Under the pieces are notes generated by a model. The model saw only the letters and a list, made by a program, of their open reading frames with translations. It was not told where the DNA came from and searched no databases. From positions 367 through 64,366 of the forward strand of contig JAZJXT010000006.1 of NCBI GenBank assembly GCA_040390725.1: DNA of 64,000 bases. Reading direction: 5' to 3'. Below are positions 1 to 57,051 of the stretch, piece after piece. Made by a program: the position numbers and the translations under genes. Positions within the stretch are counted from its first letter, which is position 1. Each line of letters begins with the position of its first letter. This DNA is from Patescibacteria group bacterium. Its GTDB lineage: Bacteria; Patescibacteriota; Minisyncoccia; Phycocordibacterales; UBA9973.

Positions 1-185
1 CAGGGTATGCTCCTTTATCATAAAGATAAAGATTATTGAGGTTTACTCAATAGGGTTTCCCCATTCGGAAATCTCCGGATCAAAGGTTGCTAGGCACCTC
101 CCCGAAGCTTATCGCAGCAACGCCACGTCCTTCATCGCCTCTTAAAGTCAAGGCATCCACCGTACGCCCTTAAATTTCCTGTTAA
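1..185 (-). rRNA. rrl: 23S rRNA, 5' end (the gene continues beyond the window start)
   Basis: The reverse complement of 1-185 matches the conserved 23S 5' domain (GGATGCCTTGAC...GATGAAGGACGTG...GCGATAAGC...GATTTCCGAATGGGGAAACC). No 16S rRNA is found upstream on the minus strand within 5 kb. Confidence 0.8.
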
Positions 186-5645: not shown

Positions 5646-5744
5646 AAGACATTATTTTTACTAAAACTCGCCTACTCTTTAAAGGATTTTCGGCTACTCC
5701 TTATTTATTTGTCAAAAAACTTTACCAAGCTCAAAAAAGAACAA

Positions 5745-12010: not shown

Positions 12011-12033
12011 AATTTATTCTAAATTTTTACTTA

Positions 12034-12103
12034 AAAACAAAAGCACCCCGAGCAAATGCAAGGGATGCTTTTATTATAGTACTTTTGAAAAGTTATTTCA
12101 ATT
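12034..12103 (-). promoter_or_regulatory. R2a: consensus sigma70-like promoter (TTGAAA-17-TATAAT) followed by a leader hairpin and U-tract, upstream of purH
   Basis: The minus strand reads ttgaaataacttttcaaaagtactataat, then agcatcccttgcatttgctcggggtgcttttgttttt, then ATG of purH. Near-identical copy at 13598-13668. Confidence 0.55.
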
Positions 12104-12905
12104 AATTATTATTTGTACTTTCCACTATAGTTTGCTTATCTATATTCCAATGTATAGCTTTATTCTTAAGAATTTTTCGTGCTGATAGATCGTTAATATA
12201 AACGTCTTTCCATAACCGTAAAACGTCATCGTGTTTTTCAACTAAAAATACTAACTTTTTTTCTAATTTAGTTATCACTGTTTTTAAGCCGGAAGGATTT
12301 ACCCTAACAAGGTTAATTACTTCATCCAGAATTTGCCTTGTTTCTTTAAAGTTTTGCGCATTATCTATTTTGCTATTCATAATAAATGCAATCTTAGGAA
12401 TGACTTTATTATTTTCAAATATCTCTATTTCTTGCATAGTCTCTGCGTCCCCTGAATCACCAAACGAAACTCCTGGCTCAAAAAATATATTATTTAAATC
12501 TTCTAATGAATTTGTATTTTTTATATCCTGCTCAAGAAGTTGAAAATATTTATTTACAAAACTTTTAAAAAGAGGGCGATCAGACTGTCTAATTTTTACA
12601 AAATAATGAATATGGAGATTTTTAAAATCAGAAAGTTCTTCGATTGTTGTTTTTGCACTATTTATTTTATTAGTAAATTGAGCAATAAACATCTCTTCTG
12701 CCATCTTAGCTTCAATTGGAGCATTTTTTGTACTATCTCGCTTGTACTCCTCCTCTATTTTTTCAGATTCTTGTTTCTGTTGAAATTCAGTATGCTTAAC
12801 AAGTCCTTCACCAATAGCAAGCCCTGCGAGAACAGCTAAGGCATTAGTAACTAAAGGGTTAGCCATAATTTTCTTTCCTATATTCATTCCTTCTTTTTTT
12901 CCCAT
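12102..12905 (-). CDS. hypothetical protein with an N-terminal TM segment
   Basis: ORF track. Confidence 0.35.
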   Translation of the reverse strand: MGKKEGMNIGKKIMANPLVTNALAVLAGLAIGEGLVKHTEFQQKQESEKIEEEYKRDSTKNAPIEAKMAEEMFIAQFTNKINSAKTTIEELSDFKNLHIHYFVKIRQSDRPLFKSFVNKYFQLLEQDIKNTNSLEDLNNIFFEPGVSFGDSGDAETMQEIEIFENNKVIPKIAFIMNSKIDNAQNFKETRQILDEVINLVRVNPSGLKTVITKLEKKLVFLVEKHDDVLRLWKDVYINDLSARKILKNKAIHWNIDKQTIVESTNNN

Positions 12906-13026
12906 AAATTTATTATAAAGTTAATTAGTAATCCGACTCATATATAGTACTCTCTCTCTCTGCACGTCAAGCAAGTATGATTATCCACAGATTCATTTAC
13001 TTGTACATATCTACTAAATATGGTAT

Positions 13027-13129
13027 CTTATAAATGTGCCTGTGGGCGTAAGCCCCTTATCGGCTAAGGATCTTCCAAAGCTGAAGACAGGTACATAAAA
13101 AAACCCAAGCCAGTGCTTGGTTTTTTTTA
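13027..13129 (+). ncRNA. R3a: candidate ~100-nt structured RNA with GNRA hairpin (gggcGTAAgccc) and its own intrinsic terminator, convergent with the 3' end of 13132-13578
   Basis: ~80% identity to the minus-strand copy at 47497-47593, with different but self-complementary terminator stems (compensatory). Ends in aaacccaagccagtgcttggtttttttt. Confidence 0.5.
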
Positions 13130-13131
13130 TT

Positions 13132-13578
13132 TTAATCTTCGTCTATTCCCTGAGTGTAAAGTCTTTGGTCGTATGGCATAACACTCCAAAACATTATATT
13201 GCCATCTCCGACTTGCTTTAAAATAATTTTTATTTTATGTTTTTTGTTATTTAATATCGCATGAAATCCCCAATACTGAACTTGTTTCATTTTATAAAAA
13301 CCGTCGTTTTGCATTTTACCATATTTTTCAATTTGCATACGATGCTCTTGAAGCGTTCCGCATTTAGGAATTATTTCTAATGCTTTTTTGAGAAGTATAA
13401 ATTTTAATATTTGCTCTTTGAGATTTCTCGGGGTACGATTCGGCTTATACTGAAGATGATTGAAACCATCTGAATTTAAAATTATTTTCGTTTGAAAATA
13501 CGGGCAATGAATTTCTTTTCTAAATTCATAAAGTGCTTTTGCTTTTGCGCGAATGTTTTCAAAATCTTGCATAATCAA
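13132..13578 (-). CDS. hypothetical protein, paralog family X (HCP...NS.GF.HL.Y...GDGNI.F.SV motifs)
   Basis: Clear paralogy with 47042-47455 (shared motifs HCP, IILNSDGFNHLQY/IIFNSKGFYHLRY, VGDGNIMFWSV/IGDGNITFLSV). No known family recognised. Confidence 0.5.
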   Translation of the reverse strand: MIMQDFENIRAKAKALYEFRKEIHCPYFQTKIILNSDGFNHLQYKPNRTPRNLKEQILKFILLKKALEIIPKCGTLQEHRMQIEKYGKMQNDGFYKMKQVQYWGFHAILNNKKHKIKIILKQVGDGNIMFWSVMPYDQRLYTQGIDED

Positions 13579-13597
13579 AAGTATAACACAAAAATTA

Positions 13598-13668
13598 AAA
13601 ACAAAAGCGCCCCGAGCAAATGCAAGGGATGCTTCTATTATAGTACTTTTGAAAAGTTATTTCAATTC
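13598..13668 (-). promoter_or_regulatory. R2b: second copy of the promoter/leader-hairpin module, upstream of paralog X1
   Basis: ttgaaataacttttcaaaagtactataat plus hairpin gcatcccttgcatttgctcggggcgc plus U-run; ~90% identical to 12034-12103. Confidence 0.55.
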
Positions 13669-22373: not shown

Positions 22374-22526
22374 AAATAATTAAATTGGGATCTGCCCTGT
22401 TAATATCACGCTCTTTTTCTTTAACCCTTTAAAAACTAAAGAATTAAAGGAGAAAAGCGGATTAATCAAGACCGTATTCCCTTGCCTGCCATACTAGCAA
22501 ATTAGAAATAAATAGTCAAATATTTG

Positions 22527-22923
22527 TGGAACTGACGAGAATTGAACTCGTGTGCAAAAGGTTGTTGCAGAGAAATCGACATGCTTGGCTCATTTTTTTG
22601 TTTAAATTTTAAAATTCTTAAATGAGCAAAATATTTTAAAATCGAGTTCTAAGTTTTCGTGAAATATGCGAACAAATATTTCCTTATCCCGATAATATTA
22701 TGCCTCGTCTCATATATCGGAAGTCTATGAGGGAGACACCAGTTTGGCTTACGCGAAAGCTGGAGCGAAAGCAAAATCATTCATACCGAAGTATGGAGAA
22801 GCTTTTGCAAACGCCTTAGAAGTCAATTTTGCAATTAACATTTGAGCGAATTTTTTCGAGATTACGCTCATGCTCGGCATGCATCAATAGCAAAAGGCCT
22901 TTTGTCTATGCCTTGCAGTCCCC
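22527..22923 (-). ncRNA. ssrA: tmRNA (SsrA)
   Basis: Minus-strand 5' GGGGACUG pairs with 3' CAGUUCC + A (the acceptor stem has a G3-U wobble, the alanine identity element). T-arm acgag-TTCAATT-ctcgt. Internal tag-like reading frame ...gat ttt gct ttc gct cca gct ttc gcg TAA (..DFAFAPAFA*). Immediately adjacent to smpB. Confidence 0.7.
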
Positions 22924-27681: not shown

Positions 27682-28035
27682 ATGACAAGAGTAAAAAAAG
27701 GAGTACACGCATTAAAAAGAAGGAGAAGTGTCTTAAAGCAGACCAAAGGAATGCGTCATGGACGCAGTACTAAAGAACGCCAAGCAAAAGAGGCATTGCT
27801 TCATGCTGGTTCTTACTCTTTCGCTCACCGAAAAGATAAAAAAGGCCACAACAGAACTCTTTGGAATATAAAAATAAATGCAGGTTCTCGTGAACTCGGT
27901 ATGACTTACTCTACACTCATCAGTGCATTAAAAAAGAAAAACATAGAAGTTGACCGAAAGATCCTAGCCGACCTAGCTGAAAACAACCCTGAAACTTTCT
28001 CTAGAATCCTAGCAAGCTTAAAAAAACAAGGTTAA
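27682..28035 (+). CDS. rplT: 50S ribosomal protein L20
   Basis: MTRVKKGVHALKRRRSVLKQTKG... Confidence 0.9.
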   Translation: MTRVKKGVHALKRRRSVLKQTKGMRHGRSTKERQAKEALLHAGSYSFAHRKDKKGHNRTLWNIKINAGSRELGMTYSTLISALKKKNIEVDRKILADLAENNPETFSRILASLKKQG

Positions 28036-28773
28036 ACCTTGTTTTTTTATTACACTTCCTCTTCTCTGTAATTCAACCAATCATTTATAAAATCTTTAAA
28101 CTCTTTGTGAGATTGAAAATACTCTGGAAAATTTTCCAAATTTAAAATAGATTTTTCTATCCTGAAAGACCCGCAGTGATCTATAAAACTAGAAAATTTA
28201 TAATCAGCTAAAAACTTTTTTGTTTCTGCTAAATTTTTAATTCCCTCTTCCTTCCAAGTCTTATCTATCAACTTTACTGGATTTAATCCGATATAAGCAA
28301 ATAAATATTTTAAATAATTATCACCCATAGCGTGTCTACCTTTAAATGTTCCTTGAAATAAACTGCCAGTACGATTGTTCTTTTTATTGAAATACATAGT
28401 ATATGCCGTTGTTAACTTCTGCATAAATAAACTAATTCCATTTTGAACTTTTTCTCTAGCTAGAATATGAAAGTGATTAGGCATTAAACAATAAGAACCA
28501 ATTTCAACCAAAGTATCACTTTTTTCCAATTCCCAAAAATCTGACAAGGTTAAACCTTGTTTTTGGTAATCCCCTATATCTACTTTTTCGATACTATTAC
28601 ATAAATACAAAAGAACCATAAATCTATCGTAGTCATTTATGTCATCAAAAATAATTCTTTTATCTACTCCTCTATTATACAGATGGAAAAATTCACCAAT
28701 TGAAAATTCAATATTTCTAGTCATTGTTATATTTTAACAAAAAATAAAGGCAAAAACAAGGTTTAACCTTGTT
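28025..28773 (-). mobile_element. IS200/IS605-like (RAYT-like) element: Y1 transposase gene bracketed by identical palindromic hairpins
   Basis: Hairpins aacaaggtt(t)aaaccttgtt at 28025-28043 and 28755-28773, plus a third copy inside the CDS at 28545-28562. Confidence 0.55.
28050..28724 (-). CDS. IS200-like Y1 (HuH) transposase / REP-associated tyrosine transposase-like
   Basis: YCLMPNHFHIL (HuH motif of Y1 transposases) and GSLFQGTFK (GxLWQxR-like). Confidence 0.6.
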   Translation of the reverse strand: MTRNIEFSIGEFFHLYNRGVDKRIIFDDINDYDRFMVLLYLCNSIEKVDIGDYQKQGLTLSDFWELEKSDTLVEIGSYCLMPNHFHILAREKVQNGISLFMQKLTTAYTMYFNKKNNRTGSLFQGTFKGRHAMGDNYLKYLFAYIGLNPVKLIDKTWKEEGIKNLAETKKFLADYKFSSFIDHCGSFRIEKSILNLENFPEYFQSHKEFKDFINDWLNYREEEV

Positions 28774-28775
28774 TT

Positions 28776-29339
28776 TTAAATAAAATTACCTATTTCTTTA
28801 ATAAGATAATCTAAAGTTTTATAAACAATTCCATTCAAACCTAAACTTTTTGCAATCTCAATATTTTTTTCTCCATCATCAATAAAGAGAATTTCCTCTG
28901 GCAAACAACCACATCGCTGGATAGCTGTTTCAAAGATTTCTTTGCTTGGTTTAATAAGTTTCAAATCAGAAGAAATAAGTATAGGGTCAAACATTCCTAA
29001 TTTTTCAGAAATTAACCTCTCTAATAAACTTCGAGGAATATTCGTAAGCAATCCTATTTTATATTTATCTTTTAAATTATTTTCTATAAAATCAAATAAT
29101 TCATAATTAACTTTCGGCGCATTATTTACTGCTTTCCAGATTTCATTCTCAAAAATACCCGACTTTTCAGAAATTAGTTTTACAAGTTCATTTTCAGACA
29201 AATCTCCCGCATCAAGAACATCAAGTTTTTTTATCCATTCTATTTGTTCTGATGCCGGAATAAATTTCTCAATAACTGTTTTATAAACAGGGGTAGACAA
29301 TACACCAAAAAAATCAAAAAGAATTGTTTTAATTTTCAT
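28776..29339 (-). CDS. HAD-superfamily hydrolase
   Basis: Motif I ILFDFFGVL. Confidence 0.55.
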   Translation of the reverse strand: MKIKTILFDFFGVLSTPVYKTVIEKFIPASEQIEWIKKLDVLDAGDLSENELVKLISEKSGIFENEIWKAVNNAPKVNYELFDFIENNLKDKYKIGLLTNIPRSLLERLISEKLGMFDPILISSDLKLIKPSKEIFETAIQRCGCLPEEILFIDDGEKNIEIAKSLGLNGIVYKTLDYLIKEIGNFI

Positions 29340-40865: not shown

Positions 40866-40903
40866 ATATCAACAATACAGGATTTGTGCATAATAATCAA
40901 GAT

Positions 40904-40988
40904 TCCCCTCTTGAGGGGTGGCTCGCTTTAGCGAGACAATACTCCACCTCCCCCGCCTTCAAGGCGGGTACTCCTCAAGAGGAGAATT
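40904..40988 (+). repeat. R6a: ~90-110-nt structured repeat (ttcccctcttgaggggtgg ... ccacctcccc-hairpin-gggtactcctcaagaggagaat)
   Basis: Three same-orientation copies with conserved outer stems and a third hairpin showing compensatory changes (cccgcc/ggcggg here). Confidence 0.55.
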
Positions 40989-41014
40989 AAATCCGAGGTG
41001 AATTTAAAAACAAA

Positions 41015-43597: not shown

Positions 43598-43618
43598 AAA
43601 AAAATACGCAAGAATTTA

Positions 43619-43738
43619 TTCCCCTCTTGAGGGGTGGACTTTGTATCCAAAGGACGGGGTGGAAGAATTCATCCACCTCCCCCTGCGGGTACTCCTCAAG
43701 AGGAGAATCAAAAAAAACACCCTCTCGGGTGTTTTTTT
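43619..43738 (+). repeat. R6b: second copy of the structured repeat, with a 3' intrinsic terminator (acaccctctcgggtgttttttt)
   Basis: See R6a. The middle insert actttgtatccaaaggacggggtggaag is shared with R6c. Confidence 0.55.
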
Positions 43739-46211: not shown

Positions 46212-46709
46212 TTATTCCTGCACCAAAACAGTCGCTACGTTTTGGTATTTATCACAATCCACAAGAAGAGTTTTGGATTTCAAGTAAACATCAGGCAAAA
46301 CCACTATCTTGAAACTCCATGGCTTTATAGTAAATGTCGTCCCCACCTTTATTGTCCGAGTATTTGGAGACCTGTTATCCATCATAATACCAGTATTATC
46401 TTTATATGTAACGTTAAAAGGATGTGCCTGACATGTCTTATCAAGCTGAATTCTCCTGTCAGCATACTTTACTAAAGCGTTTGCGTATGACAAAGTTATA
46501 GCTGAACTTGTAACAGGACTAGGCTCAAGGTCTTGAACTGATTCCGGCTCAGTCCCTACCGTAGCTGTATTTTCAGCCGGATTTGTTACATCCGGAGCTA
46601 CCGCTTGCTTATTTTTAGACATAAATAATAAAACTAATACAATAACAACAACTACTCCTGCCCAAACCCACATAGATTTATTTTTTTCCATAAAATTTTT
46701 TACCACCAC
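46212..46709 (-). CDS. secreted/anchored hypothetical protein
   Basis: N-terminal TM/signal; ORF track. Confidence 0.35.
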   Translation of the reverse strand: MVVKNFMEKNKSMWVWAGVVVVIVLVLLFMSKNKQAVAPDVTNPAENTATVGTEPESVQDLEPSPVTSSAITLSYANALVKYADRRIQLDKTCQAHPFNVTYKDNTGIMMDNRSPNTRTIKVGTTFTIKPWSFKIVVLPDVYLKSKTLLVDCDKYQNVATVLVQE

Positions 46710-46812: not shown

Positions 46813-46904
46813 CCTCACCCCCTTAATCCCCTCTCCGGAGTACCAGAGAGGGGAAACCAAATTCAAACACAAAAAAGCACCCATTTCTGAGTGCTTTTTT
46901 GTTT
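46813..46904 (+). repeat. R5 inverted-repeat end (cctcacccc-N5-cccctctcc-loop-gagagggg) plus R4 terminator repeat copy 1
   Basis: Inverted partner at 47617-47637. Direct repeat of aaaccaaat.caaacacaaaaaagcacccatttctgagtgcttttttgttt at 47638-47690. Confidence 0.6.
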
Positions 46905-46974
46905 GCTTGTTGAAAAATTTTCCACAGATATATTGCTTTTATTGTTAAAAAGTGTATAGTAATAATGTACTCGT

Positions 46975-47058
46975 GAACCGTAAGGTTTATTCGGCTAAGG
47001 AATTCCATACGCCGCAAGCGAGTACTACAAAGACGCCGTCGCTATGACGGCTTTTTTG
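46975..47058 (+). ncRNA. R3c: partial, degenerate copy of the R3 element, convergent with the 3' end of paralog X2, with its own terminator (gccgtcgctatgacggctttttt)
   Basis: cCGTAAGgtttaTTCGGCTAAGGAatTCC aligns to the cGTAAGccccTTATCGGCTAAGGAtcTTCC of R3a. Confidence 0.4.
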
Positions 47059-47455
47059 TTTGCTTTTCTTTCTTTTTCCAAACGCTCAAGAATGTAATAT
47101 TTCCATCACCTATCCTGCGCAAAACAACAGAAACAGTGGCTCCACTTTTTCCGGCGATTTCTTTTAATTCCCAAATCTCAAAATATTTACCGAGCGGTTT
47201 TGAATACTGCTGTTTTTTATAATCAAAAATACTTTTTGCGTTTTTAATTACAGGAATCACCAACGGAAGCAACCCCATTTTAAATTGTTGCTCTTTAATA
47301 TTTCTTTGTTTGCCGTGGCTATCATATCTTAAATGATAAAATCCTTTAGAATTAAAAATAATCTCTTCATTTAAAATAGGGCAATGCACTTTGCCAATGG
47401 TTTTATACCAAGCCCCCTTTTCTTTCAAAAATTCTTGAAACGATTGTTTTTCCAC
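47042..47455 (-). CDS. hypothetical protein, paralog family X (second copy)
   Basis: See 13132-13578. Confidence 0.5.
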   Translation of the reverse strand: MEKQSFQEFLKEKGAWYKTIGKVHCPILNEEIIFNSKGFYHLRYDSHGKQRNIKEQQFKMGLLPLVIPVIKNAKSIFDYKKQQYSKPLGKYFEIWELKEIAGKSGATVSVVLRRIGDGNITFLSVWKKKEKQTKKPS

Positions 47456-47496
47456 AAAATAGATTATAGCATAATAAGAAAAATATTTTATAAAAC

Positions 47497-47593
47497 AAAA
47501 AATCCACCTTTCGGTGGGTTCTTTGTTATGCCTGGCTTCAAGCTTAGGAATACCTTAGCTGAACGGGGCTTACGCCCACAGGCACACTTATAA
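47497..47593 (-). ncRNA. R3b: full copy of the R3 structured element, co-directional with and immediately upstream of paralog X2, ending in the terminator cccaccgaaaggtgg + U-run
   Basis: ~80% identity to 13027-13129 including the gggcgtaagcccc hairpin. Confidence 0.5.
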
Positions 47594-47616
47594 TCTAACA
47601 TAAAATTTTTAATTTT

Positions 47617-47690
47617 GGAGAGGGGTCAGGGGTGAGGAAAAACCAAATACAAACACAAAAAAGCACCCATTTCTGAGTGCTTTTTTGTTT
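47617..47690 (+). repeat. R5 inverted-repeat end (ggagaggggtcaggggtgagg) plus R4 terminator repeat copy 2
   Basis: Reverse complement of the first half of 46813-46853; R4 ~95% identical to 46854-46904. Confidence 0.6.
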
Positions 47691-47736: not shown

Positions 47737-50700
47737 CTAGCTAGTTAGGCCAACAGAATTTGTTGGGTAATTATTCAAGTATAAAGTGTTGTTTGTTGTC
47801 TCATTTCCTGTTGCACCACCTGCTGTGTCAGTCCAGACAAATGTTGCAGCTGCACCAACAGAACTTGAGATAGAGCTCGAGTGAGCACCACCAGAGTTAG
47901 GAACAGCTGAAACTGGGACAAAGATCTTGAAGGTAATAGTTGTTCCGTGTGCAATAAGGTAACCACCGTTATTAAAGGTGATTGTACTATTACCACTAGA
48001 GAACGAACCAGCTGTTGTTTCAAGAACAGCACCTGAAGCATCTTTTACAAAAATACTTGTTGTAGAAGAAGAAACTCCAGTTCCAGATGTAGAATCTGCA
48101 CCATCAGCAAGAGTTGCGTCAGTTGTAGATACATGAATATCTAAGCTCTGTAGAGTGATGTCTCCTGCTTGATCAGCGCTAACTGTAACGTTCATAGCGT
48201 TTTCGTTACCAACAGCTAGGACACCACCAGCAGCAACTACTGCGACAACTGGCTTTGAACCAACAACTCTCATAGTAGGAGTTGAGACAGTGATAGTACC
48301 AGTGTCTGAACTCGCTCCTCCGATAGTGTAGTAAACCTTTGTCATAGTAAGTTGTGAAGTGCCGTTATCAGAAGTGTATGCACCGATACCAGCAGCACCG
48401 ACAGATCCATAAGAAATCATTACAGGGAATGTAGCACCAGAAGAACCATTTGGAACAGCAAGGTTAAGACCTGTGATGTCAAATGTGTTGCCAGTAGTGT
48501 TAACATTACCAGTTTGTCCTCCTACAGTGATAGCAGTGATAGGATCAGTTGCGCCACTTGTAGAGAATGTGATTTCAGTAATATTTGCATTTCCGTTTGA
48601 AGATACAAATTTGAATGAACCTGTAGTTGCATTACTTACTCCTGTAGCTCCCGCTGCAACATACTGAGAAGTAGTTGAACTTGAAGTAACCAATGTAGGT
48701 GTAGCGACAGTACCAGTAGCCATTGTTATTGTTTGACCAGTAACATCTGTAAGACTAGTATTGCCATTTGCAAAGATAGAAACATTTGAACTTGAACCGA
48801 TACCTTGTGGAGCAAGCTTAGTAAGTATTGTACCGTAGTTTGCACCTCCAAGATCAGCCATCAAATCAATTGTCTTTGTTGCACCTGGTGCAAGAGTAAA
48901 GTCAACTGAGAAAGTATCAGTACCAGTTGGAGCAATTGGATTTGAACCAGAACCTGAAGTTTCTGAAGTTCTCAATCCGTTTACATAAGTGATAGCTGTA
49001 GCTGTCTTACCAGCGACAGTGATAGCAGCACCTAATGCACAACCTCCAGTACCTGCTGTAGAAACAGTTGTAGTAAGTTGTGTTGAACTTGCAACTGCAG
49101 TTACTGTACCAACTAGGTCTACTGTAGGACAATCAACAGTGATCACATCACCAGCATTGAAGCTAGCAGAAGATGATACGTTGATAGCGTGACCAGCACC
49201 TGCTGTAAAGTCACTACCAGCAGCAACCAATGTAGGAGTAGCAAATGTTGTTGTAACTCTCAAGCTAGTAACACGAACAGATTCAGATGTACTCTGGTTC
49301 TGCATAGTGTAAGAGCCAAGTTTTACGTTTGCAGTATTTGCATTCATAACTTGATTACCATAGCTAGCGTTCTTTCCAACGTTAAGAGTACCAGTTTGAA
49401 TGTTCAAAGTGTTACCTGTAACGCTTGGGATAGCCAAGCCATTGTGTGAGTTCATACCTTCAGCACCAGTAGAACTTCCTACTAGGCTAGCGTGAAGAGT
49501 ACCAGCTGTGTAGTTGATACTTGTGCTGTTTCGGATATCTGCACGGATTTCCAAATAACTATCAACACCTGCAGGCACAATCATTTGTGAGCCTGGTGTC
49601 ATATCTATTTGAGTACCGGAAGTACCAGTTGCAGTTTGAGTACCAATTTGTGAACCATTAAAGTAAGCAGTAACGTTCTGAAGAGTTGTTGTACTTCCAG
49701 AAGAAACTGTTCCACTAATAGTTGGTGTGAAAGAAAGCGTGTTTACCTTCATATCTTCACCGTAAGCATGCAATTTGAACTTAGCGATAGCTACGTTTGT
49801 AGCACCACCAGTCACTTTAGTCATAGCTTGGAAAGTAGGGTCAATAACAGCTGTCATTGAACCTGCGTTTATAGTGATTGAAGAGTAAGTTGCGTTTGTT
49901 ACACCTCCGAATACAACGTTGATTCCGACTTGAGAGTCGTAAACCATCATATCAGAAGCTAATTGAACTGAAAGTTGAATAGTTCTTGCAGAACCTTTTA
50001 CGACATCTGCGCGAACATCCAAAGTGTGGTTACCAGTAGTAAGTTCAACTGGCATTGCAGACAAGTCAAAGGTTACATAATTTGAACCATTAACTGTTGT
50101 CATTGTACCTGTAGAACCTAGAGCAAGTCCGTCTTTGTATAGTTTTACATTCGCTAGAGCGTCAGTAGGAGCAGAACCGATAACTCGGAAGTTTGCAGCC
50201 TTGAGCCATAGAGAGTGTGTACCTACAACATTGATAGGAGCTGACCATACTGTGTAAGCAGTAGTACCAGGGTTAACTGTAGGGTTAACAGGTAGAGTAT
50301 TTGTAGTGAAGCTTACTGAAGCAGCATTTGATCCAGTAGCGACATACATAGTATTACCAACCAAGTTAACATTTGTAGCTGCACCGCCAGTAACTGTGAA
50401 AGAAGTCATATTTACGCCAAGACTGTAAGCAGTGTTACCGACATTAAGCACGTCAGCTCTTACGGAAATAGTTCTTGAACCACTAACCATAAGATTAAGA
50501 CTACTCATAGTAAGATCACCGTTATTGTTGAAAGAGTAACCATCTGTCAAACGTGTTACACCATCGTATAGGTAAACGTTTGTAAGAGTACTCTGATCAG
50601 AAATACCAGTTCTCTTTAACATAACAGAGTTAACTGTTCCAGTTCCTGTGAATGTAACGTGTAACAAGTCAGCAGTAGCTTGACCGGCAACGATTGTGCC

Positions 50701-51273
50701 AGCAGCTGGGTTGTCTGTTGCAAGCATTACAGTAACAGGACCAGTTTGAGAAGCAGTAGAACTTGCTGCGTAGCAAGCTCCGCCAGTTACAGGACTAAAT
50801 CCTGCAGCTGAAGTACAACCAGGTGGAAGGAATGTGTTTGCCATTACGCTAGCACATGACATGCCAGTTGTTGAACTGTATCCAGAAGCTGAAGTACAGC
50901 CTGCTGGGAAGTTACCTGATACTGAACCGTGAGCGACTAATGAAGCTCGTGACATTGGTCCGAATACTCCGTCAGCTGTAAGGCCGGCAGAAGCTTGGAA
51001 CATTTTCACTGCAGCCTTAGTTGCGTTTCCGAAGTATGTTGTTTCCATACCTGCAGAACCAGCACTAACACCGTCAACGTGGAAACCCTTTTCATTAAGC
51101 ATCTGTTGAAGACACATAACTTGAGAATTTCTCATTCCATATTTCAAAGTCATAGTGAAGCCAGTACAATTTGCTGCGTTGACTTCTGTTGCATTTACAG
51201 CAACAACACCAACGAACATAACTGCCGCCATCACAACTCCTGAAAGGAATTTTGATTTAAATAAATTACTCAT
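47737..51273 (-). CDS. giant (1178 aa) secreted Thr/Ser/Gly/Val-rich surface protein with an N-terminal peptidoglycan-binding domain
   Basis: Signal peptide, then CTGFTMTLKYGMRNSQVMCLQQMLNEKGF...ATKAAVKMFQASAGLTADGVFGP (PG_binding_1-like), followed by >1000 aa of low-complexity beta-rich sequence. Confidence 0.55.
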   Translation of the reverse strand: MSNLFKSKFLSGVVMAAVMFVGVVAVNATEVNAANCTGFTMTLKYGMRNSQVMCLQQMLNEKGFHVDGVSAGSAGMETTYFGNATKAAVKMFQASAGLTADGVFGPMSRASLVAHGSVSGNFPAGCTSASGYSSTTGMSCASVMANTFLPPGCTSAAGFSPVTGGACYAASSTASQTGPVTVMLATDNPAAGTIVAGQATADLLHVTFTGTGTVNSVMLKRTGISDQSTLTNVYLYDGVTRLTDGYSFNNNGDLTMSSLNLMVSGSRTISVRADVLNVGNTAYSLGVNMTSFTVTGGAATNVNLVGNTMYVATGSNAASVSFTTNTLPVNPTVNPGTTAYTVWSAPINVVGTHSLWLKAANFRVIGSAPTDALANVKLYKDGLALGSTGTMTTVNGSNYVTFDLSAMPVELTTGNHTLDVRADVVKGSARTIQLSVQLASDMMVYDSQVGINVVFGGVTNATYSSITINAGSMTAVIDPTFQAMTKVTGGATNVAIAKFKLHAYGEDMKVNTLSFTPTISGTVSSGSTTTLQNVTAYFNGSQIGTQTATGTSGTQIDMTPGSQMIVPAGVDSYLEIRADIRNSTSINYTAGTLHASLVGSSTGAEGMNSHNGLAIPSVTGNTLNIQTGTLNVGKNASYGNQVMNANTANVKLGSYTMQNQSTSESVRVTSLRVTTTFATPTLVAAGSDFTAGAGHAINVSSSASFNAGDVITVDCPTVDLVGTVTAVASSTQLTTTVSTAGTGGCALGAAITVAGKTATAITYVNGLRTSETSGSGSNPIAPTGTDTFSVDFTLAPGATKTIDLMADLGGANYGTILTKLAPQGIGSSSNVSIFANGNTSLTDVTGQTITMATGTVATPTLVTSSSTTSQYVAAGATGVSNATTGSFKFVSSNGNANITEITFSTSGATDPITAITVGGQTGNVNTTGNTFDITGLNLAVPNGSSGATFPVMISYGSVGAAGIGAYTSDNGTSQLTMTKVYYTIGGASSDTGTITVSTPTMRVVGSKPVVAVVAAGGVLAVGNENAMNVTVSADQAGDITLQSLDIHVSTTDATLADGADSTSGTGVSSSTTSIFVKDASGAVLETTAGSFSSGNSTITFNNGGYLIAHGTTITFKIFVPVSAVPNSGGAHSSSISSSVGAAATFVWTDTAGGATGNETTNNTLYLNNYPTNSVGLTS

Positions 51274-51687: not shown

Positions 51688-52506
51688 TTAGATATTATAT
51701 TTTGACCACCTCTTCTCCCCTGTTTTTTTTAACAAATTGTCCTTTACCATAGAGATGAGTTCGCGCTGTAAAGTTTTCTCTCCGCATGTCCTTAAGACAC
51801 CTTGGGCGTTATCTTTGATGTCCTTTATTGTCGCTCCACCTTTGTCCTTTATAATTTTTATTATCTCTTCATGGCGTTGTTTTTTTAGATTATTGAAAGC
51901 CTCTCCCCCCGCCCTCTCCAAAGTAGAGGGAGCTTTAATTTTGTCCGATATCGCTTTCATTAAAGTGTGTCCTTTTTGAAGACCAAAATTTATAGATTGA
52001 TGTCCGTTAGAAACTTCTTTCACCCTCTCCTTGATAAGGAGAGGGTTGGGGTGAGGTGAATTTTGAAATTTATTTTCTACTTCTTCTTCCCCAAAAAAAT
52101 CCTCCAATAAAACAGAATTTCTTTGCGTATCCAACACCTCTGAATTTAAAAATTCTTTCATTTTTAAAAACTCTCTTTTTAAAATAGTAGAATTCATTTC
52201 TGAAATTAAATTCACGGTCAAAGCTATGTCCAATAAAGATATTATGGCAGAAATTTTTTGATCTAAATGTGTATGTAAGGAATCTGTGTCCGATATAATT
52301 TCCGTACCTAATGTCCTTAATTTATTACGTAATGGCTCTTCTTTGTCCATTATGTCCGTTACCATATAAAGAGCTATTATAAGCTTATTTGTTTTTGTGT
52401 AGGACATCAACATTCCTCCTGTATTCCCATGTCTCCTGAGCACTGAAAGAGCTGATGTCGCATAGCTGTCTTTGAGATTTTTATTTTCATCTAACATGTT
52501 GTCCAT
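51688..52506 (-). CDS. hypothetical protein carrying in-frame R5-like palindromic segments
   Basis: ORF track. ccctctccttgataaggagagggttggggtgagg at 52023-52057 lies inside the ORF and encodes ..HPNPLLIKER.. Confidence 0.35.
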   Translation of the reverse strand: MDNMLDENKNLKDSYATSALSVLRRHGNTGGMLMSYTKTNKLIIALYMVTDIMDKEEPLRNKLRTLGTEIISDTDSLHTHLDQKISAIISLLDIALTVNLISEMNSTILKREFLKMKEFLNSEVLDTQRNSVLLEDFFGEEEVENKFQNSPHPNPLLIKERVKEVSNGHQSINFGLQKGHTLMKAISDKIKAPSTLERAGGEAFNNLKKQRHEEIIKIIKDKGGATIKDIKDNAQGVLRTCGEKTLQRELISMVKDNLLKKTGEKRWSKYNI

Positions 52507-52538
52507 TATATATAAAAGACATAGAAATGCAAATCTTA

Positions 52539-52650
52539 TTCCCCTCTTGAGGGGTGGACTTTGTACTCAAAGGACGGGGTGGAGGTTTTCGGGTTAATAA
52601 ATTCTCCACCTCCCCCCGACAGTAGTCGGGGTACTCCTCAAGAGGAGAAT
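52539..52650 (+). repeat. R6c: third copy of the structured repeat
   Basis: ttcccctcttgaggggtggactttgtactcaaaggacggggtggagg...ccacctccccccgacagtagtcggggtactcctcaagaggagaat. Confidence 0.55.
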
Positions 52651-52680
52651 TAAAAAAAATATGTTAAAATACATTTACTT

Positions 52681-56336: not shown

Positions 56337-56386
56337 CCTCACCTAGCCTCACCCCTTAACCCCCTCTCCAGAGTACTAGAGAGGGG
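56337..56386 (+). repeat. R5 inverted-repeat end bounding the hicBA cassette (left)
   Basis: cctcacctagcctcacccc-ttaa-ccccctctcc-agagtactaga-gagagggg. Confidence 0.55.
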
Positions 56387-56519
56387 TAAAATACTTGCAT
56401 ACTTTTTTGGCTATGATATAATATACTCACTAAATGTGAAAGGCATCCTATATGGGTGCTTTTCTTGTTTTTAAATCATTAAAGCTTGCATTACAGTATA
56501 GATTTGATATTATCAAGAT

Positions 56520-56768
56520 ATGTCCAAAGAATTCTCTTATAAAATAGAATACGAGGTTGATAAGAAATCCGGTCAAGTAACGGCGACTATTCCTGAGCTT
56601 AATCACATTTCTTCTTTTGGTGATTCATTTGCCGAAGCGGAAGCCAATGTTCGTGAAGCATCATTGGGGTATTTGGAGTTGCTAGTTAAAAAACAAAAAA
56701 GAATCCCTGCTCCTGCATTTCACACTGATGGAACGTATTTAAAACTTTTTATTCCAAAGTTTGCTTAA
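56520..56768 (+). CDS. hicB: HicB-family antitoxin
   Basis: UPF0150/HicB-like fold signature (YKIEYEVDKKSGQVTATIPELNHISSFGDSFAEAEANVREA); overlaps hicA by 8 nt. Confidence 0.55.
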   Translation: MSKEFSYKIEYEVDKKSGQVTATIPELNHISSFGDSFAEAEANVREASLGYLELLVKKQKRIPAPAFHTDGTYLKLFIPKFA

Positions 56769-56994
56769 AAAAATGAGCAAATTAAATCCTTTATCAGCTA
56801 GAAAGGTTATTCAGAAACTCAAAAAAATAGGTTTTATTAAAACGCATCAGCGCGGAAGTCATTTGTATTTAGAAAACGGTGATAAGGTCGTAACAATTCC
56901 CGTTCACGGTTCAAAGGATATTCCCGTAGGTACTCTTTACAACATTGTCGTTAAACAAGCCGAACTTTCCATAAAAGAATTTCAGAATTTATAA
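56761..56994 (+). CDS. hicA: HicA-family mRNA interferase toxin
   Basis: KLKKIGFIKTHQRGSHLYLENGDKVVTIPVHGSKDIPVGTLYNIVKQA matches the HicA/YcfA pattern. Confidence 0.6.
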   Translation: MLKKMSKLNPLSARKVIQKLKKIGFIKTHQRGSHLYLENGDKVVTIPVHGSKDIPVGTLYNIVVKQAELSIKEFQNL

Positions 56995-57004
56995 TTTTTT
57001 TATT

Positions 57005-57051
57005 CCTCCCCTCTCTAAAATTTTTATTTTGGAGAGGGGTCGGGGGTGAGG
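57005..57051 (+). repeat. R5 inverted-repeat end bounding the hicBA cassette (right)
   Basis: cccctctc-loop-ggagagggg tcggggg tgagg; reverse complement of the left end core. Confidence 0.55.

What the first reader, a model, noticed from the sequence alone, without database searches (positions are those of the whole stretch)
46813..47690. Paralog X2 cassette carries R3 on both sides and is bracketed by terminal inverted repeats (R5) and ~50-bp direct repeats (R4)
X2 (47042-47455, -) has a full R3 copy immediately upstream and co-directional (47497-47593), terminating ~40 nt before its start. This arrangement of structured RNA, terminator, then ORF resembles type III toxin-antitoxin or attenuator layouts, but with a single repeat. 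X2 also has a degenerate R3 copy convergent at its 3' end (46975-47058). The whole ~880-bp unit lies between cctcacccc-N5-cccctctcc (46813-46835) and its reverse complement ggagaggggtcaggggtgagg (47617-47637). Each end is followed by a near-identical ~50-bp hairpin terminator (46854-46904 and 47638-47690). This looks like a small non-autonomous mobile cassette with cargo, an IR-bounded MITE-like element, and no transposase inside.
Basis: seen in the sequence. Interest (0 to 1): 0.7.

Follow-up and report, generated by a model that had tools for sequence, protein, structure and literature searches.

The report
Inserted gene–small-RNA module between host repeats
The 880-bp unit is an accessory insertion in a candidate-phyla-radiation (CPR) bacterium that carries a small protein gene and a previously undescribed structured small RNA, a pair conserved across CPR bacteria and probably a toxin–antitoxin-like module, while its "terminal inverted repeats" are resident host triplex-motif repeats and its direct repeats are a duplicated host terminator.

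Summary
The reading as a transposon-like element bounded by terminal inverted repeats does not hold.

(1) The conserved unit is gene X plus a convergent ~95-nt RNA (R3). R3 lies just beyond the X stop codon in 43 of 45 homologous loci. It has its own sigma-70 promoter, and its terminator lies antisense inside the last X codons. R3 is a three-way junction with strong covariation (97% paired; 16 of 19 pairs compensatory) and has no Rfam match. The copy called "degenerate" (46967-47060) is X2's true partner. The upstream copy (47497-47593) is an orphan of the X1 type.

(3) R5 is a BoxC/PIT "triplex motif", which is ubiquitous in bacteria. A second R5 pair brackets a HicAB cassette. Relatives lack HicAB at that site, yet two of the three whose spacer could be read keep triplex-motif-like units there. 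The motifs are therefore resident, not cargo ends.

(4) R4 is a duplicated host terminator. Host-specific direct repeats of 32-127 nt flank X–R3 modules in 12 of 41 other loci, against 3 of 59 controls. How this duplication arises is unknown.

The parts
46813..46854 (-). R5 left: a complete BoxC/PIT/triplex-motif-like unit in antisense orientation (CCTCACCCC-CTTAAT-CCCCTCTCC-loop-GAGAGGGG).
   Evidence: The motif class was identified from PMC4666352.
46848..46904 (.). R4a: one copy of the 57-nt direct repeat. It holds a bidirectional terminator hairpin at 46869-46902.
   Evidence: (family D7).
46920..46966 (+). Promoter region of the convergent R3 RNA (-10 TATAGT at 46955-46960).
   Evidence: In the family, the -10 consensus sits at -12 to -7 and a TTGACA-like -35 at about -36 to -30.
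46967..47060 (+). R3-A, the cognate small RNA of X2. The three-way-junction core is 46967-47032; the terminator hairpin is 47035-47051, followed by a U tract. The last ~20 nt are antisense to the final six codons and the stop codon of X2.
   Evidence: 83 bits; z = -4.7; covariation; geometry.
47042..47455 (-). X2: a 137-aa LPD3-fold protein, the putative toxin or effector.
47456..47472 (-). X2 promoter: an extended -10 element (TGCTATAAT, complement of 47463-47471) 7 nt upstream of the GTG start codon. This implies a leaderless mRNA.
   Evidence: Read directly from the sequence. This is an inference.
47497..47593 (-). R3-B: an extra, co-directional R3 copy of the X1 type (core 47521-47585, terminator 47504-47517). 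It has a -10 box but no -35 element. I interpret it as an orphan.
   Evidence: 66 bits; z = -5.6; first 21 nt identical to the X1-linked copy.
47617..47637 (+). R5 right: a partial triplex-motif unit (GGAGAGGGG-TCA-GGGGTGAGG) that lacks the pyrimidine arm.
47634..47690 (.). R4b: the second copy of the direct repeat. It is the terminator directly downstream of the 1178-aa surface-protein gene (47737-51273, minus strand).
13036..13578 (.). Sister module: R3 (13036-13128, +) convergent with X1 (13132-13578, -).
12031..13667 (.). The unit that contains X1, R3 and a 267-aa ORF, bounded by a 73-nt direct repeat (12031-12103 and 13595-13667, 97% identical). There is no R5 here.
   Evidence: (family D2).
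56347..57051 (.). Second R5-bracketed cassette: triplex motif in (-) orientation at 56347-56387, hicB 56520-56768, hicA 56761-56994, triplex motif in (+) orientation at 57008-57051. It lies between recA and efp.
   Evidence: Empty sites in relatives.

Best explanation
The region is an accessory cassette that landed in an intergenic spacer already holding host repeats.

Its core is a compact, self-contained module of about 590 bp (46905 to about 47497). One part is X2, a 137-aa LPD3-fold protein, probably translated from a leaderless mRNA made from an extended -10 promoter. The other part is R3-A, a convergently transcribed RNA of about 95 nt. R3-A starts exactly at the first base of a conserved three-way junction (P1; P2 capped by a GNRA loop; P3). 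Its intrinsic terminator lies antisense within the last six codons of X2.

Inferred mechanism: the module behaves as a toxin-antitoxin-like (addiction or defence) pair. R3 holds X in check. It could do so by antisense pairing over the shared terminator (type I-like), by its folded domain binding the protein (type III-like), or by both. X is likely a nucleic-acid-targeting effector.

R3-B is an orphan RNA of the X1 type, left by an earlier or neighbouring module.

The R5 'terminal inverted repeats' are two resident BoxC/PIT/triplex-motif units in inverted orientation. Such pairs exist without cargo in relatives and behave as hot spots for insertion and rearrangement.

R4 is the terminator of the upstream surface-protein gene, duplicated on insertion. 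The same kind of host-specific duplication, 32-127 nt long, flanks X-R3 modules in other genomes. What causes it is unknown.

Shown: the existence, structure and expression signals of the RNA; the X-R3 linkage; the nature of R5; the direct repeats; the empty sites.
Inferred: toxicity, RNA-mediated control, and the insertion mechanism.
For: RNA:
- The covariance model R1 finds R3 in 43 of 45 X loci. In each it is convergent, with its core ending a median of 10 nt from the X stop codon.
- There were no hits with E < 0.1 in 600 kb of unrelated DNA.
- On 53 copies, 97.2% of cells are paired and 16 of 19 pairs show compensatory changes; 0 of 500 shuffles reach the observed values, and slid controls give 21-41% paired. 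RNAalifold finds covariation at 14 of 18 pairs.
- Upstream of 51 copies, the -10 box sits exactly at -12 to -7 (T 43/51, A 43/51, T 44/51), with a TTGACA-like -35 element.
- Folding z-scores are -4.7 to -6.1.
- No Rfam family matches, even at E <= 10.

Protein:
- The family has 1200 clusters at 50% identity with E <= 1e-3, nearly all 110-160 aa and standalone.
- The AlphaFold model has pLDDT 91.
- The top BFVD matches are LPD3 domains (probability 1.0, TM about 0.6).

Accessory or selfish behaviour:
- Paralogs are divergent (X1 and X2 share 31% identity).
- Modules occur in tandem, some X genes are disrupted, and some R3 copies are orphans.
- The module is absent at the syntenic site of relative L048.
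- Flanking direct repeats occur in 12 of 41 loci against 3 of 59 controls. Their sequences are host-specific.

R5:
- It has the same block design as the E. coli triplex motif (TM_ECO; PMC4666352).
- More than 120 metagenome contigs carry the motif.
- In relatives whose RecA is 90-93% identical, recA is followed directly by efp with no HicAB. Two of the three spacers read contain triplex-motif-like units, one of them an inverted pair with a 15-nt spacer.
Against: No experiment or transcriptome supports toxicity, RNA-protein binding or antisense control.
- PADLOC, PHROGs and NCBIfam gave no hits.
- X is far larger and more soluble than classical type I toxins.
- R3 is a single unit, not the tandem array of type III antitoxins.
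- Only the terminator overlaps X. The reason the junction domain is conserved is therefore unexplained.
- For X2 itself, no closely related genome with an empty site was found. The nearest neighbour-gene homolog is 69% identical, so the ancestral arrangement of R5 and R4 at this site is inferred by analogy.
- Direct repeats are detectable in only about 30% of loci.
Confidence: 0.6

Rival explanations
1. The roughly 880-bp unit is a non-autonomous, MITE-like transposable cassette. Its ends are the R5 inverted repeats, and a transposase or nuclease encoded elsewhere mobilises it. Candidates are the Y1/IS200-like ORF at 28050-28724 or a DUF559 endonuclease.
For: - Two units in the window have the same layout, triplex motif (-) ... 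cargo ... triplex motif (+).
- The same layout brackets DUF559 endonuclease genes in Synechocystis and Azospirillum replicons and in metagenome contig L155, so bracketed selfish cargo recurs across phyla. L108 has the opposite orientation, and in L098 and next to E. coli ycjD a unit is merely adjacent.
- A Y1_Tnp ORF exists in the window.
Against: - There is no target-site duplication outside R5.
- R4 lies inside one R5 and outside the other.
- The two bracketed units share no interior sequence.
- R5 is absent from the X1 module and from 45 other X loci.
- Triplex-motif-like units remain in two of the three recA-efp spacers read in relatives that lack the cargo.
- The right-hand R5 of X2 is only a partial unit.
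- The Y1 ORF is flanked by different hairpins (family D3).
- No DUF559 gene is present in the window.
Confidence: 0.12
2. X-R3 is itself an autonomous minimal mobile element. X is a nuclease or recombinase and R3 is its RNA cofactor or guide. Insertion produces the target duplications of 30-130 nt.
For: - Direct repeats bracket exactly the 560-750-bp module in several genomes. L031 has a 51-nt repeat at 100% identity around a 619-bp insert.
- Modules occur in tandem (L015, L016, L037, L042).
- X homologs are 50-80% identical across different CPR classes.
- The repeats are enriched relative to controls.
Against: - There are no conserved insert termini.
- Copies within one genome are divergent, not near-identical.
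- A Bro-N cassette without X is flanked by the same repeat in L015.
- Larger repeat-bounded units carry unrelated extra genes.
- The LPD3/BECR-like fold is not a known recombinase fold.
- No known transposase makes duplications of variable length from 30 to 130 nt.
Confidence: 0.12
3. The upstream R3 copy (47497-47593) is a cis-acting leader of X2. It would act as a riboswitch or attenuator, or as a type III-style antitoxin read through into the toxin gene.
For: The order is RNA, terminator, a 42-nt gap, then the ORF, all on the same strand. L010 has the same extra copy.
Against: - This layout occurs in only 2 of 46 loci.
- R3 has its own promoter and ends in a strong terminator, with no evident alternative fold.
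- X2 has its own extended -10 promoter downstream of that terminator.
- This copy matches the X1-linked subtype, not the subtype found with X2 homologs.
- There are no tandem repeats.
Confidence: 0.05
4. The units are integron-like gene cassettes exchanged by a site-specific recombinase acting on the hairpin repeats, which would serve as attC-like sites.
For: L015 shows an array of repeat-cassette-repeat-cassette-repeat. Toxin-antitoxin cargo is typical of chromosomal integrons (general knowledge).
Against: The repeats are locus-specific host sequences (terminators, or promoter and 5'UTR regions) with no shared core. The cassettes are dispersed as singles. No integrase was seen next to any of the loci inspected.
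Confidence: 0.03

Closest known systems
Type I toxin-antitoxin systems with convergent, 3'-overlapping antisense RNAs. Examples are par/Fst RNAI-RNAII, which share a bidirectional terminator, and txpA/RatA. The nuclease-type type I toxins SymE/SymR and RalR/RalA are also relevant (from general knowledge).
   Same: A small RNA with its own promoter is transcribed convergently. Its terminator is complementary to the 3' end of the protein's mRNA. The two-gene module is compact, present in several divergent copies per genome, and horizontally spread.
   Different: X is a 110-160-aa soluble, basic protein, not a short membrane peptide. The RNA carries a strongly conserved three-way-junction domain that does not overlap the mRNA. 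Toxicity has not been tested.
Type III toxin-antitoxin systems (ToxIN, CptIN, TenpIN).
   Same: A structured RNA is paired genetically with a putative RNase-like protein. In the window, the extra copy reproduces the order RNA-terminator-gene.
   Different: The conserved arrangement is convergent, not upstream. The RNA is a single unit rather than a tandem repeat array. X shows no sequence relation to ToxN/AbiQ.
BoxC / PIT / 'TM' intrastrand triplex motifs (Holder et al., NAR 2015, PMC4666352).
   Same: R5 has the same three blocks: a pyrimidine arm, a purine arm, and a mirror purine arm with T or A opposite A. It is intergenic and often occurs in inverted pairs. Loci that carry it are unusually variable between strains.
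   Different: The blocks are CCCCTCTCC/GGAGAGGGG/GGGGTGAGG, against CCCTCTCCC/GGGAGAGGG/GGGTGAGGG in E. coli. The first loop is 9-14 nt, longer than the 1-6 nt used in the published search. One unit is partial. The host is a CPR bacterium with about 37% GC.
LPD3 (Pfam PF18798), a domain of phage and conjugative-element polyvalent proteins (Iyer et al. 2017, PMC5512222).
   Same: The predicted fold of X2 matches LPD3 domains (BFVD probability 1.0). X1 and some homologs give weak or precomputed PF18798 hits.
   Different: X is a standalone chromosomal protein linked to an RNA gene. The function of LPD3 is itself unknown. X2 does not reach the Pfam threshold.
MITEs and REPINs (inverted-repeat-bounded non-autonomous elements).
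   Same: Inverted copies of a short repeat flank a segment that encodes no transposase.
   Different: There is no target-site duplication. The interiors are unrelated. The repeats persist at empty sites. The repeat family spans many phyla and is not tied to a cognate transposase in this genome.

Membership tests
MITE / non-autonomous TIR transposon | Terminal inverted repeats at both ends. | tested here: met
   A 21-24-nt inverted repeat lies at 46813-46836 and 47617-37, with 0 expected by chance. The right-hand copy is only a partial unit.
MITE / non-autonomous TIR transposon | A short target-site duplication immediately outside both inverted repeats. | tested here: not met
   The outer flanks differ...TATTACAG on the left, AAAAACCA... 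on the right. R4 lies inside the left repeat and outside the right one.
MITE / non-autonomous TIR transposon | Several copies of the same element, and repeats that are absent from empty sites. | tested here: not met
   The two bracketed units share no interior sequence. Triplex-motif-like units remain in two of the three recA-efp spacers read in relatives that lack the cargo.
BoxC/PIT/TM intrastrand triplex motif | Three consecutive blocks (pyrimidine, complementary purine, mirror-repeat purine) able to form G*G:C, A*A:T and T*A:T triads. | tested here: met
   The blocks are CCCCTCTCC / GGAGAGGGG / GGGGTGAGG. The third block read backwards (GGAGTGGGG) mirrors the second, with T opposite A, as in TM_ECO.
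BoxC/PIT/TM intrastrand triplex motif | Short loops (1-6 nt in the ITxF search definition). | tested here: inconclusive
   Loop 2 is 3-6 nt. Loop 1 is 9, 9 and 14 nt in the three complete units. More than 100 metagenome copies of the same blocks have loops of 4-6 nt.
BoxC/PIT/TM intrastrand triplex motif | Triplex formation in vitro or in vivo. | not testable with these tools
   This needs CD or NMR spectroscopy, or footprinting.
Type III toxin-antitoxin | An antitoxin RNA made of tandem repeats upstream of the toxin gene, separated from it by a terminator. | tested here: not met
   There is no tandem array. The upstream position is seen in 2 of 46 loci only; 43 of 45 are convergent.
Type III toxin-antitoxin | A toxin of the ToxN/AbiQ/CptN/TenpN endoribonuclease families. 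| tested here: not met
   There are no hits in Pfam, PADLOC or NCBIfam. The fold is LPD3-like.
Type I toxin-antitoxin | A cis-encoded antisense RNA that overlaps the toxin mRNA. | tested here: met
   The R3 terminator overlaps the last ~20 nt of the X2 coding sequence. Across 43 loci, the median distance from the R3 core end to the X stop codon is 10 nt.
Type I toxin-antitoxin | A small hydrophobic toxin, or demonstrated toxicity. | tested here: not met
   X is 137 aa and soluble, with a confident alpha/beta model. Toxicity cannot be tested here.
LPD3 (PF18798) | A match to the Pfam model above the gathering score. | tested here: inconclusive
   X2 gives no hit. X1 scores 17 bits against a cutoff of 27. 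Two homologs carry precomputed PF18798 annotations. The fold match to LPD3 domains has probability 1.0.
Any Rfam RNA family (for R3) | A covariance-model match. | tested here: not met
   Nothing reached the gathering score. At E <= 10 only terminator-type chance hits appeared.
Integron gene cassette | attC sites with conserved core sequences, and an IntI integrase nearby. | tested here: not met
   The flanking repeats are locus-specific host sequences. No integrase is adjacent in the loci inspected. The whole genome was not available.

The most novel reading that the evidence does not exclude
X (an LPD3-fold protein) together with the R3 RNA forms a minimal RNA-associated mobile element. It would insert itself without defined DNA termini and leave target duplications of 30-130 nt. 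This would be a new class of selfish element. It would also give the widespread LPD3 domain of phage polyvalent proteins a function that depends on a nucleic-acid cofactor.
Probability: 0.08. Interest if true: 0.95.

Novelty: new variant of a known kind. Interest (0 to 1): 0.68.

Why it matters
Three points follow from this analysis.

1. It defines a structured RNA family that has no Rfam match and that I did not find in the searchable literature. There are 53 copies with strong covariation. The RNA is tied almost one-to-one to a large family of small proteins (about 1200 clusters at 50% identity) in CPR/Patescibacteria, where very few non-coding RNAs or toxin–antitoxin-type systems are characterised. 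It also gives the orphan LPD3 domain its first conserved genetic partner.

2. It shows that BoxC/PIT triplex motifs, whose function in E. coli has been unclear for decades, occur in CPR genomes. Inverted pairs of them flank inserted selfish genes (HicAB, X–R3, and DUF559 endonucleases in other phyla), and they persist in empty sites. That makes the proposed link between these motifs and genome instability testable at defined junctions.

3. It exposes an unexplained insertion signature: host-specific duplications of 30-130 nt.

Tried and rejected
- Rfam, at gathering and permissive thresholds: no family for R3.
- Pfam, PADLOC, PHROGs and NCBIfam for X2: nothing. X1 gave only a sub-threshold LPD3 hit.
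- Foldseek against the PDB and a profile search of PDB sequences: nothing.
- The afdb50 fold library was not available.
- IMG/VR viral contigs: no X homolog.
- Literature searches for a CPR RNA-antitoxin or an LPD3-RNA link: nothing relevant.
- Looking for a third conserved gene inside the larger repeat-bounded units: the extra ORFs are unrelated to one another.
- Looking for conserved insert termini or microhomology at the junctions: none found.
- Looking for strain-level empty alleles of the X2 site. The closest neighbour-gene homolog is only 69% identical. The Logan contig of the same organism simply breaks inside R4. One look-up with a window protein found nothing.
- A tRNA-like reading of R3 (7-bp P1, invariant U8, 5-bp P3) was considered. 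ARAGORN and the Rfam tRNA models do not support it.
- A palindromic P3 loop (GGAAUUCC changing to GGGAUCCC) suggested kissing-loop dimerisation. That loop is absent or different in many copies.
Full report
**Source and setting.** The window comes from a Patescibacteria (CPR) metagenome-assembled genome. X2 is identical to the NCBI protein 'MAG: hypothetical protein V4439_03985 [Patescibacteria group bacterium]', on a 130-kb contig. GC content is about 31-42%. The finding lies between the 3' end of a 1178-aa surface-protein gene (47737-51273, minus strand) and the 5' end of a 165-aa gene (46212-46709, minus strand).

**Check of the observation.** Everything described is present.
- X2 is the ORF 47042-47455 (-).
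- A 21-24-nt inverted repeat, CCTCACCCC-N-CCCCTCTCC, lies at 46813-46836 and, reversed, at 47617-47637. None is expected by chance.
- A 57-nt direct repeat (95% identical) lies at 46848-46904 and 47634-47690. Each copy carries a 15-bp hairpin with flanking A and T runs.
- Three R3 copies are in the window: 13036-13101 (+), 46967-47032 (+) and 47521-47585 (-).

Two corrections matter.
- The convergent copy at the 3' end of X2 is not degenerate. It is the best match to the family model (83 bits, against 66 and 67).
- The direct repeat lies inside the left inverted repeat and outside the right one. The layout is [R5][R4]-cargo-[R5][R4]. This is not the geometry of a target-site duplication around an element with terminal inverted repeats, and no short duplication abuts the outer edges of R5.

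**What R3 is.** Thirteen copies (three from the window, ten from other genomes) align to a three-way junction. P1 is 7 bp. P2 is 4-5 bp and capped by a GNRA loop. P3 is 5 bp with a variable distal part. In this alignment 99% of cells are paired and 9 of 19 pairs show compensatory changes.

A covariance model built from that alignment found 53 copies in the window plus 45 loci that encode X homologs.
- On these 53 copies, 97.2% of cells are paired.
- 16 of 19 pairs have changes on both sides (173 cells).
- No shuffle of 500 reaches the observed values.
- Sliding the 3' partners drops pairing to 21-41%.
- RNAalifold independently recovers the fold, with covariation at 14 of 18 pairs.

The same model found nothing with E < 0.1 in about 600 kb of unrelated metagenomic DNA.

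Upstream of 51 copies there is a sigma-70 promoter in fixed register. A TAtAaT box sits exactly at -12 to -7 (T 43/51, A 43/51, T 44/51), and a cTTGACa box sits near -36 to -30. Transcription should therefore start at the first G of P1. Each window copy ends in an intrinsic terminator, and folding z-scores are -4.7 to -6.1.

R3 is therefore an independently transcribed RNA of about 95 nt, not a DNA repeat. No Rfam 15 family matches it, even at E <= 10. I found no paper describing it. The paper library is incomplete, so the absence of a paper is weak evidence.

**The conserved unit is X plus a convergent R3.** X2 has 140 homologs with E <= 1e-3 in the word-indexed search. They are 50-80% identical across Magasanikbacteria, Vogelbacteria, Komeilibacteria, Zambryskibacteria, Berkelbacteria and Taylorbacteria, and also occur in a few bins labelled Bacteroidetes or Actinomycetota. 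An exhaustive profile search finds 1200 clusters at 50% identity with E <= 1e-3, 702 of them with E <= 1e-10. Nearly all are standalone proteins of 110-160 aa.

In 43 of 45 genome loci, R3 lies on the opposite strand just beyond the X stop codon. The modelled core ends a median of 10 nt from the stop. Of the two exceptions, one contig ends 69 nt after X, and the other has only a weak upstream hit.

The R3 terminator therefore lies inside the last codons of X. In the window, the X2 codons ACA AAA AAG CCG TCA TAG are the complement of the 3' half of the R3-A terminator stem plus its U tract. The overlap is about 20 nt (47042-47061). The lysine-rich, low-confidence C-terminal tail of X is thus partly dictated by the terminator.

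X1 (13132-13578, 31% identical to X2) has the same convergent partner (13036-13128).

The co-directional upstream copy R3-B is the exception. Only L010 shows the same layout. R3-B shares its first 21 nt with the X1-linked copy and differs from the subtype found with X2's closest homologs. Its -35 region is replaced by R5. Its position implies that a former partner gene would have occupied the place where X2 now sits. I read it as an orphan left by an earlier or adjacent module.

Other loci also show orphan RNAs and disrupted X genes (L015, L016, L021, L037, L042).

**What X is.** Pfam, PADLOC, PHROGs and NCBIfam give nothing for X2. X1 gives a sub-threshold LPD3 hit. An AlphaFold2 model built on 75 sequences is confident (pLDDT 91, pTM 0.82). 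It has an N-terminal helix, a beta-hairpin, three helices, and then a four-stranded antiparallel sheet.

Fold comparisons gave the following.
- Against viral predicted structures, the best matches are LPD3 domains of phage polyvalent proteins (probability 1.0, TM about 0.6, E about 3e-3). The function of LPD3 is described as elusive, and it co-occurs with PBECR RNase domains (PMC5512222).
- Foldseek against the PDB and a profile search of PDB sequences found nothing.

Invariant residues include H41, R51, K90 and W95, plus the motif G116-x-G118. A nuclease-type effector is plausible but not shown.

**Is the module an insertion?** At the syntenic site of a relative (L048, neighbour gene 67% identical), the order is: homolog of the large surface protein, a 96-aa coiled-coil ORF, homolog of the 165-aa gene. 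There is no X and no R3. No closer relative was found. The Logan contig of the same organism breaks inside R4 and is uninformative.

Direct repeats like R4 are a recurrent signature of the module.
- The X1 unit is bounded by a 73-nt repeat, 97% identical (12031-12103 and 13595-13667).
- In 12 of 41 testable X loci, a direct repeat of 32-127 nt flanks the module, against 3 of 59 shifted control intervals.
- Examples are L031 (51 nt at 100% identity around a 619-bp insert), L045 (32-39 nt at 100%) and L019 (127 nt at 91%).
- L015 holds a four-copy array separating an X-R3 module, a Bro-N gene, and a frameshifted X-R3 module.

The repeats are different host sequences in each genome. They include terminators, a promoter plus 5' leader, and one stretch that looks like coding sequence. 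The insert ends share no motif. Minimal inserts are 560-750 bp. The X2 module proper (46905 to about 47497) fits that range at about 590 bp.

I could not identify a mechanism that gives duplications this long and this variable. Known transposases do not. Possibilities are fill-in of widely staggered breaks, template switching at stalled replication forks, or Campbell-type reintegration of excised circles.

**What R5 is.** R5 has three blocks: CCCCTCTCC, GGAGAGGGG and GGGGTGAGG. The third block is the mirror of the second, with T opposite A. This is the design of the E. coli BoxC/PIT 'TM' intrastrand triplex motif, CCCTCTCCC-loop-GGGAGAGGG-loop-GGGTGAGGG (Holder et al. 2015, PMC4666352).

That paper reports the following.
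- The motif occurs in more than 260 genomes.
- In E. coli K-12, several units lie as adjacent, oppositely oriented pairs, judged from the coordinates in its Table 1.
- Loci with the motif are much more rearranged between strains than control loci.
- The mechanism is unknown.

Nearly all hits are preceded by the complementary CCCCTCTCC arm.

In the window, the left units (46813-46854 and 56347-56387) are complete motifs in antisense orientation. The right unit of the second pair (57008-57051) is complete. The right unit at 47617-47637 lacks the pyrimidine arm.

The second pair brackets a HicB/HicA toxin-antitoxin pair (Pfam HicA_toxin E = 2.7e-16; HicB_lk_antitox E = 3e-5) between recA and efp.

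The empty-site test gave a clear result for this sister cassette. In four relatives with RecA 90-93% identical, recA is followed directly by efp. The spacers are 110-165 nt in three of them and about 35 nt in the fourth, and none has HicAB. Three spacers could be read.
- L182 holds CCTACCCTG-CCCTCCC-loop-GGGAGGG, then 15 nt, then CCCCCT-loop-GGGGG-loop-GGGGG. This is an inverted pair of triplex-motif-like units with no cargo between them.
- L180 also holds triplex-motif-like units.
- L181 holds none.

The motifs are therefore resident features of this spacer, and the cassette sits between them.

R5 is also absent from the X1 module and from the 45 other X loci. The one exception is an R5-like stretch at the edge of L034.

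Together with the geometry of R4, this argues against R5 being the terminal inverted repeats of a transposable cassette. It favours inverted triplex-motif pairs as places where foreign cassettes land or are retained.

**Side observation on a trans-acting enzyme.** In three motif-selected metagenome contigs, a DUF559 (Vsr-like endonuclease, Pfam PF04480) gene lies between or next to triplex-motif units: L108, L098 and L155. In L155 the unit is inserted in frame inside a methionine synthase gene.

In E. coli K-12, motif #9 of the published list lies about 165 nt from ycjD, which encodes a DUF559 protein.

I also inspected eight DUF559 loci chosen by protein similarity from plasmid or chromid records. 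Two are flanked by these motifs. Synechocystis has complete units on both sides, (-) then (+). Azospirillum has a complete (-) unit upstream and a pyrimidine-purine hairpin without the mirror arm downstream. Two more loci have partial units.

This suggests that such motif pairs are the home of a DUF559 selfish element, or its target. No DUF559 gene is in the window. The Y1_Tnp ORF at 28050-28724 is real, but it is flanked by unrelated hairpins.

**Most likely mechanism.** X-R3 is a horizontally spread, two-promoter module that I infer to be toxin-antitoxin-like. X is a nucleic-acid-targeting effector. R3 controls it, either as a 3'-overlapping antisense RNA (as in type I systems that share a bidirectional terminator), or through its conserved folded domain binding the protein (as in type III systems), or both.

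Points in favour:
- the architecture of the module;
- divergent paralogs within one genome;
- tandem copies and orphan RNAs;
- disrupted X genes that keep their RNA;
- the fact that the cassette in the other R5-bracketed unit is a bona fide toxin-antitoxin pair.

Points against:
- there is no functional evidence;
- the fold matches are weak;
- the module fits neither type I nor type III by their defining features (see the membership table).

**Novelty and verdict.** R5 belongs to a known class. R4 is an ordinary terminator, duplicated. The X-R3 pair is a new variant of RNA-controlled two-gene modules, with an RNA family not in Rfam and a large protein family of unknown function. The long host-specific duplications and the link between triplex motifs and selfish cargo are unexplained leads. 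Interest is moderate to high.

Noticed in passing
window 56347-57051: A HicB/HicA toxin-antitoxin cassette lies between recA and efp, bracketed by an inverted pair of the same R5 triplex-motif units. Four relatives (RecA 90-93% identical) have recA next to efp with no HicAB. Two of the three spacers that could be read contain triplex-motif-like units.
   Followed up: yes
L108 9446-9917; L155 3952-4384; L098 6-354; L171 (E. coli K-12 ycjD) 1205-1761; L172 403-900; L174 412-860: DUF559 (Vsr-like endonuclease) genes lie between or beside BoxC/triplex-motif units in unrelated phyla. In L155 the unit is inserted in frame inside a methionine synthase gene. This may be an autonomous element or a homing system linked to these motifs. 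I found no paper describing it.
   Followed up: partly
window 12031-13667: The X1-R3 module and a 267-aa ORF of unknown function are bounded by a 73-nt direct repeat. The repeat duplicates the purH promoter and leader region (TTGAAA-N17-TATAAT followed by a hairpin). There is no R5 here.
   Followed up: partly
L015 3777-6148: An array of four ~60-nt direct repeats (a host promoter plus Shine-Dalgarno region) separates three cassettes: an X-R3 module, a Bro-N domain gene, and a frameshifted X-R3 module.
   Followed up: partly
window 40902-40996, 43616-43717, 52536-52659: A second family of G/C-rich hairpin repeats has three copies in the window (TTATTCCCCTCTTGAGGGGTGG...GGGTACTCCTCAAGAGGAGAAT). 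At least one copy lies just downstream of a large surface-protein gene.
   Followed up: no
window 28018-28780: A Y1_Tnp (IS200/RAYT-like) ORF of 224 aa is flanked by inverted copies of AAAAACAAGGTTAAACCTTGTTTTT. A third copy lies inside the ORF (28544-28564), and a weaker (81%) match lies at 38069.
   Followed up: partly
window 51900-52056 (inside ORF 51688-52506): Triplex-motif-like sequences (GGAGAGGGTTGGGGTGAGG at 52038-52056 and CCCTCTCC...GAGGGAG near 51912-51931) lie inside a 272-aa ORF. They are read in frame as ...SPHPNPLLIKERV....
   Followed up: no
window 56394-56470: Inside the HicAB cassette, a consensus promoter (TTGCAT-N17-TATAAT) is followed after about 20-45 nt by a terminator hairpin. 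This suggests a very short transcript upstream of hicB.
   Followed up: no
window 1-183; 5669-5702; 22524-22922: The 5' end of the 23S rRNA gene lies at the window edge. There is a DUF805b RNA motif (39.5 bits) and a tmRNA gene (tag peptide AKLTSKAFAKASPYFGMNDFAFAPAFA).
   Followed up: no
L170 1-60 (Logan contig of the same organism): An independent assembly of the organism breaks exactly inside the R4 hairpin. This is expected if R4 is repeated in that sample too, and it gives no evidence on presence/absence polymorphism.
   Followed up: yes
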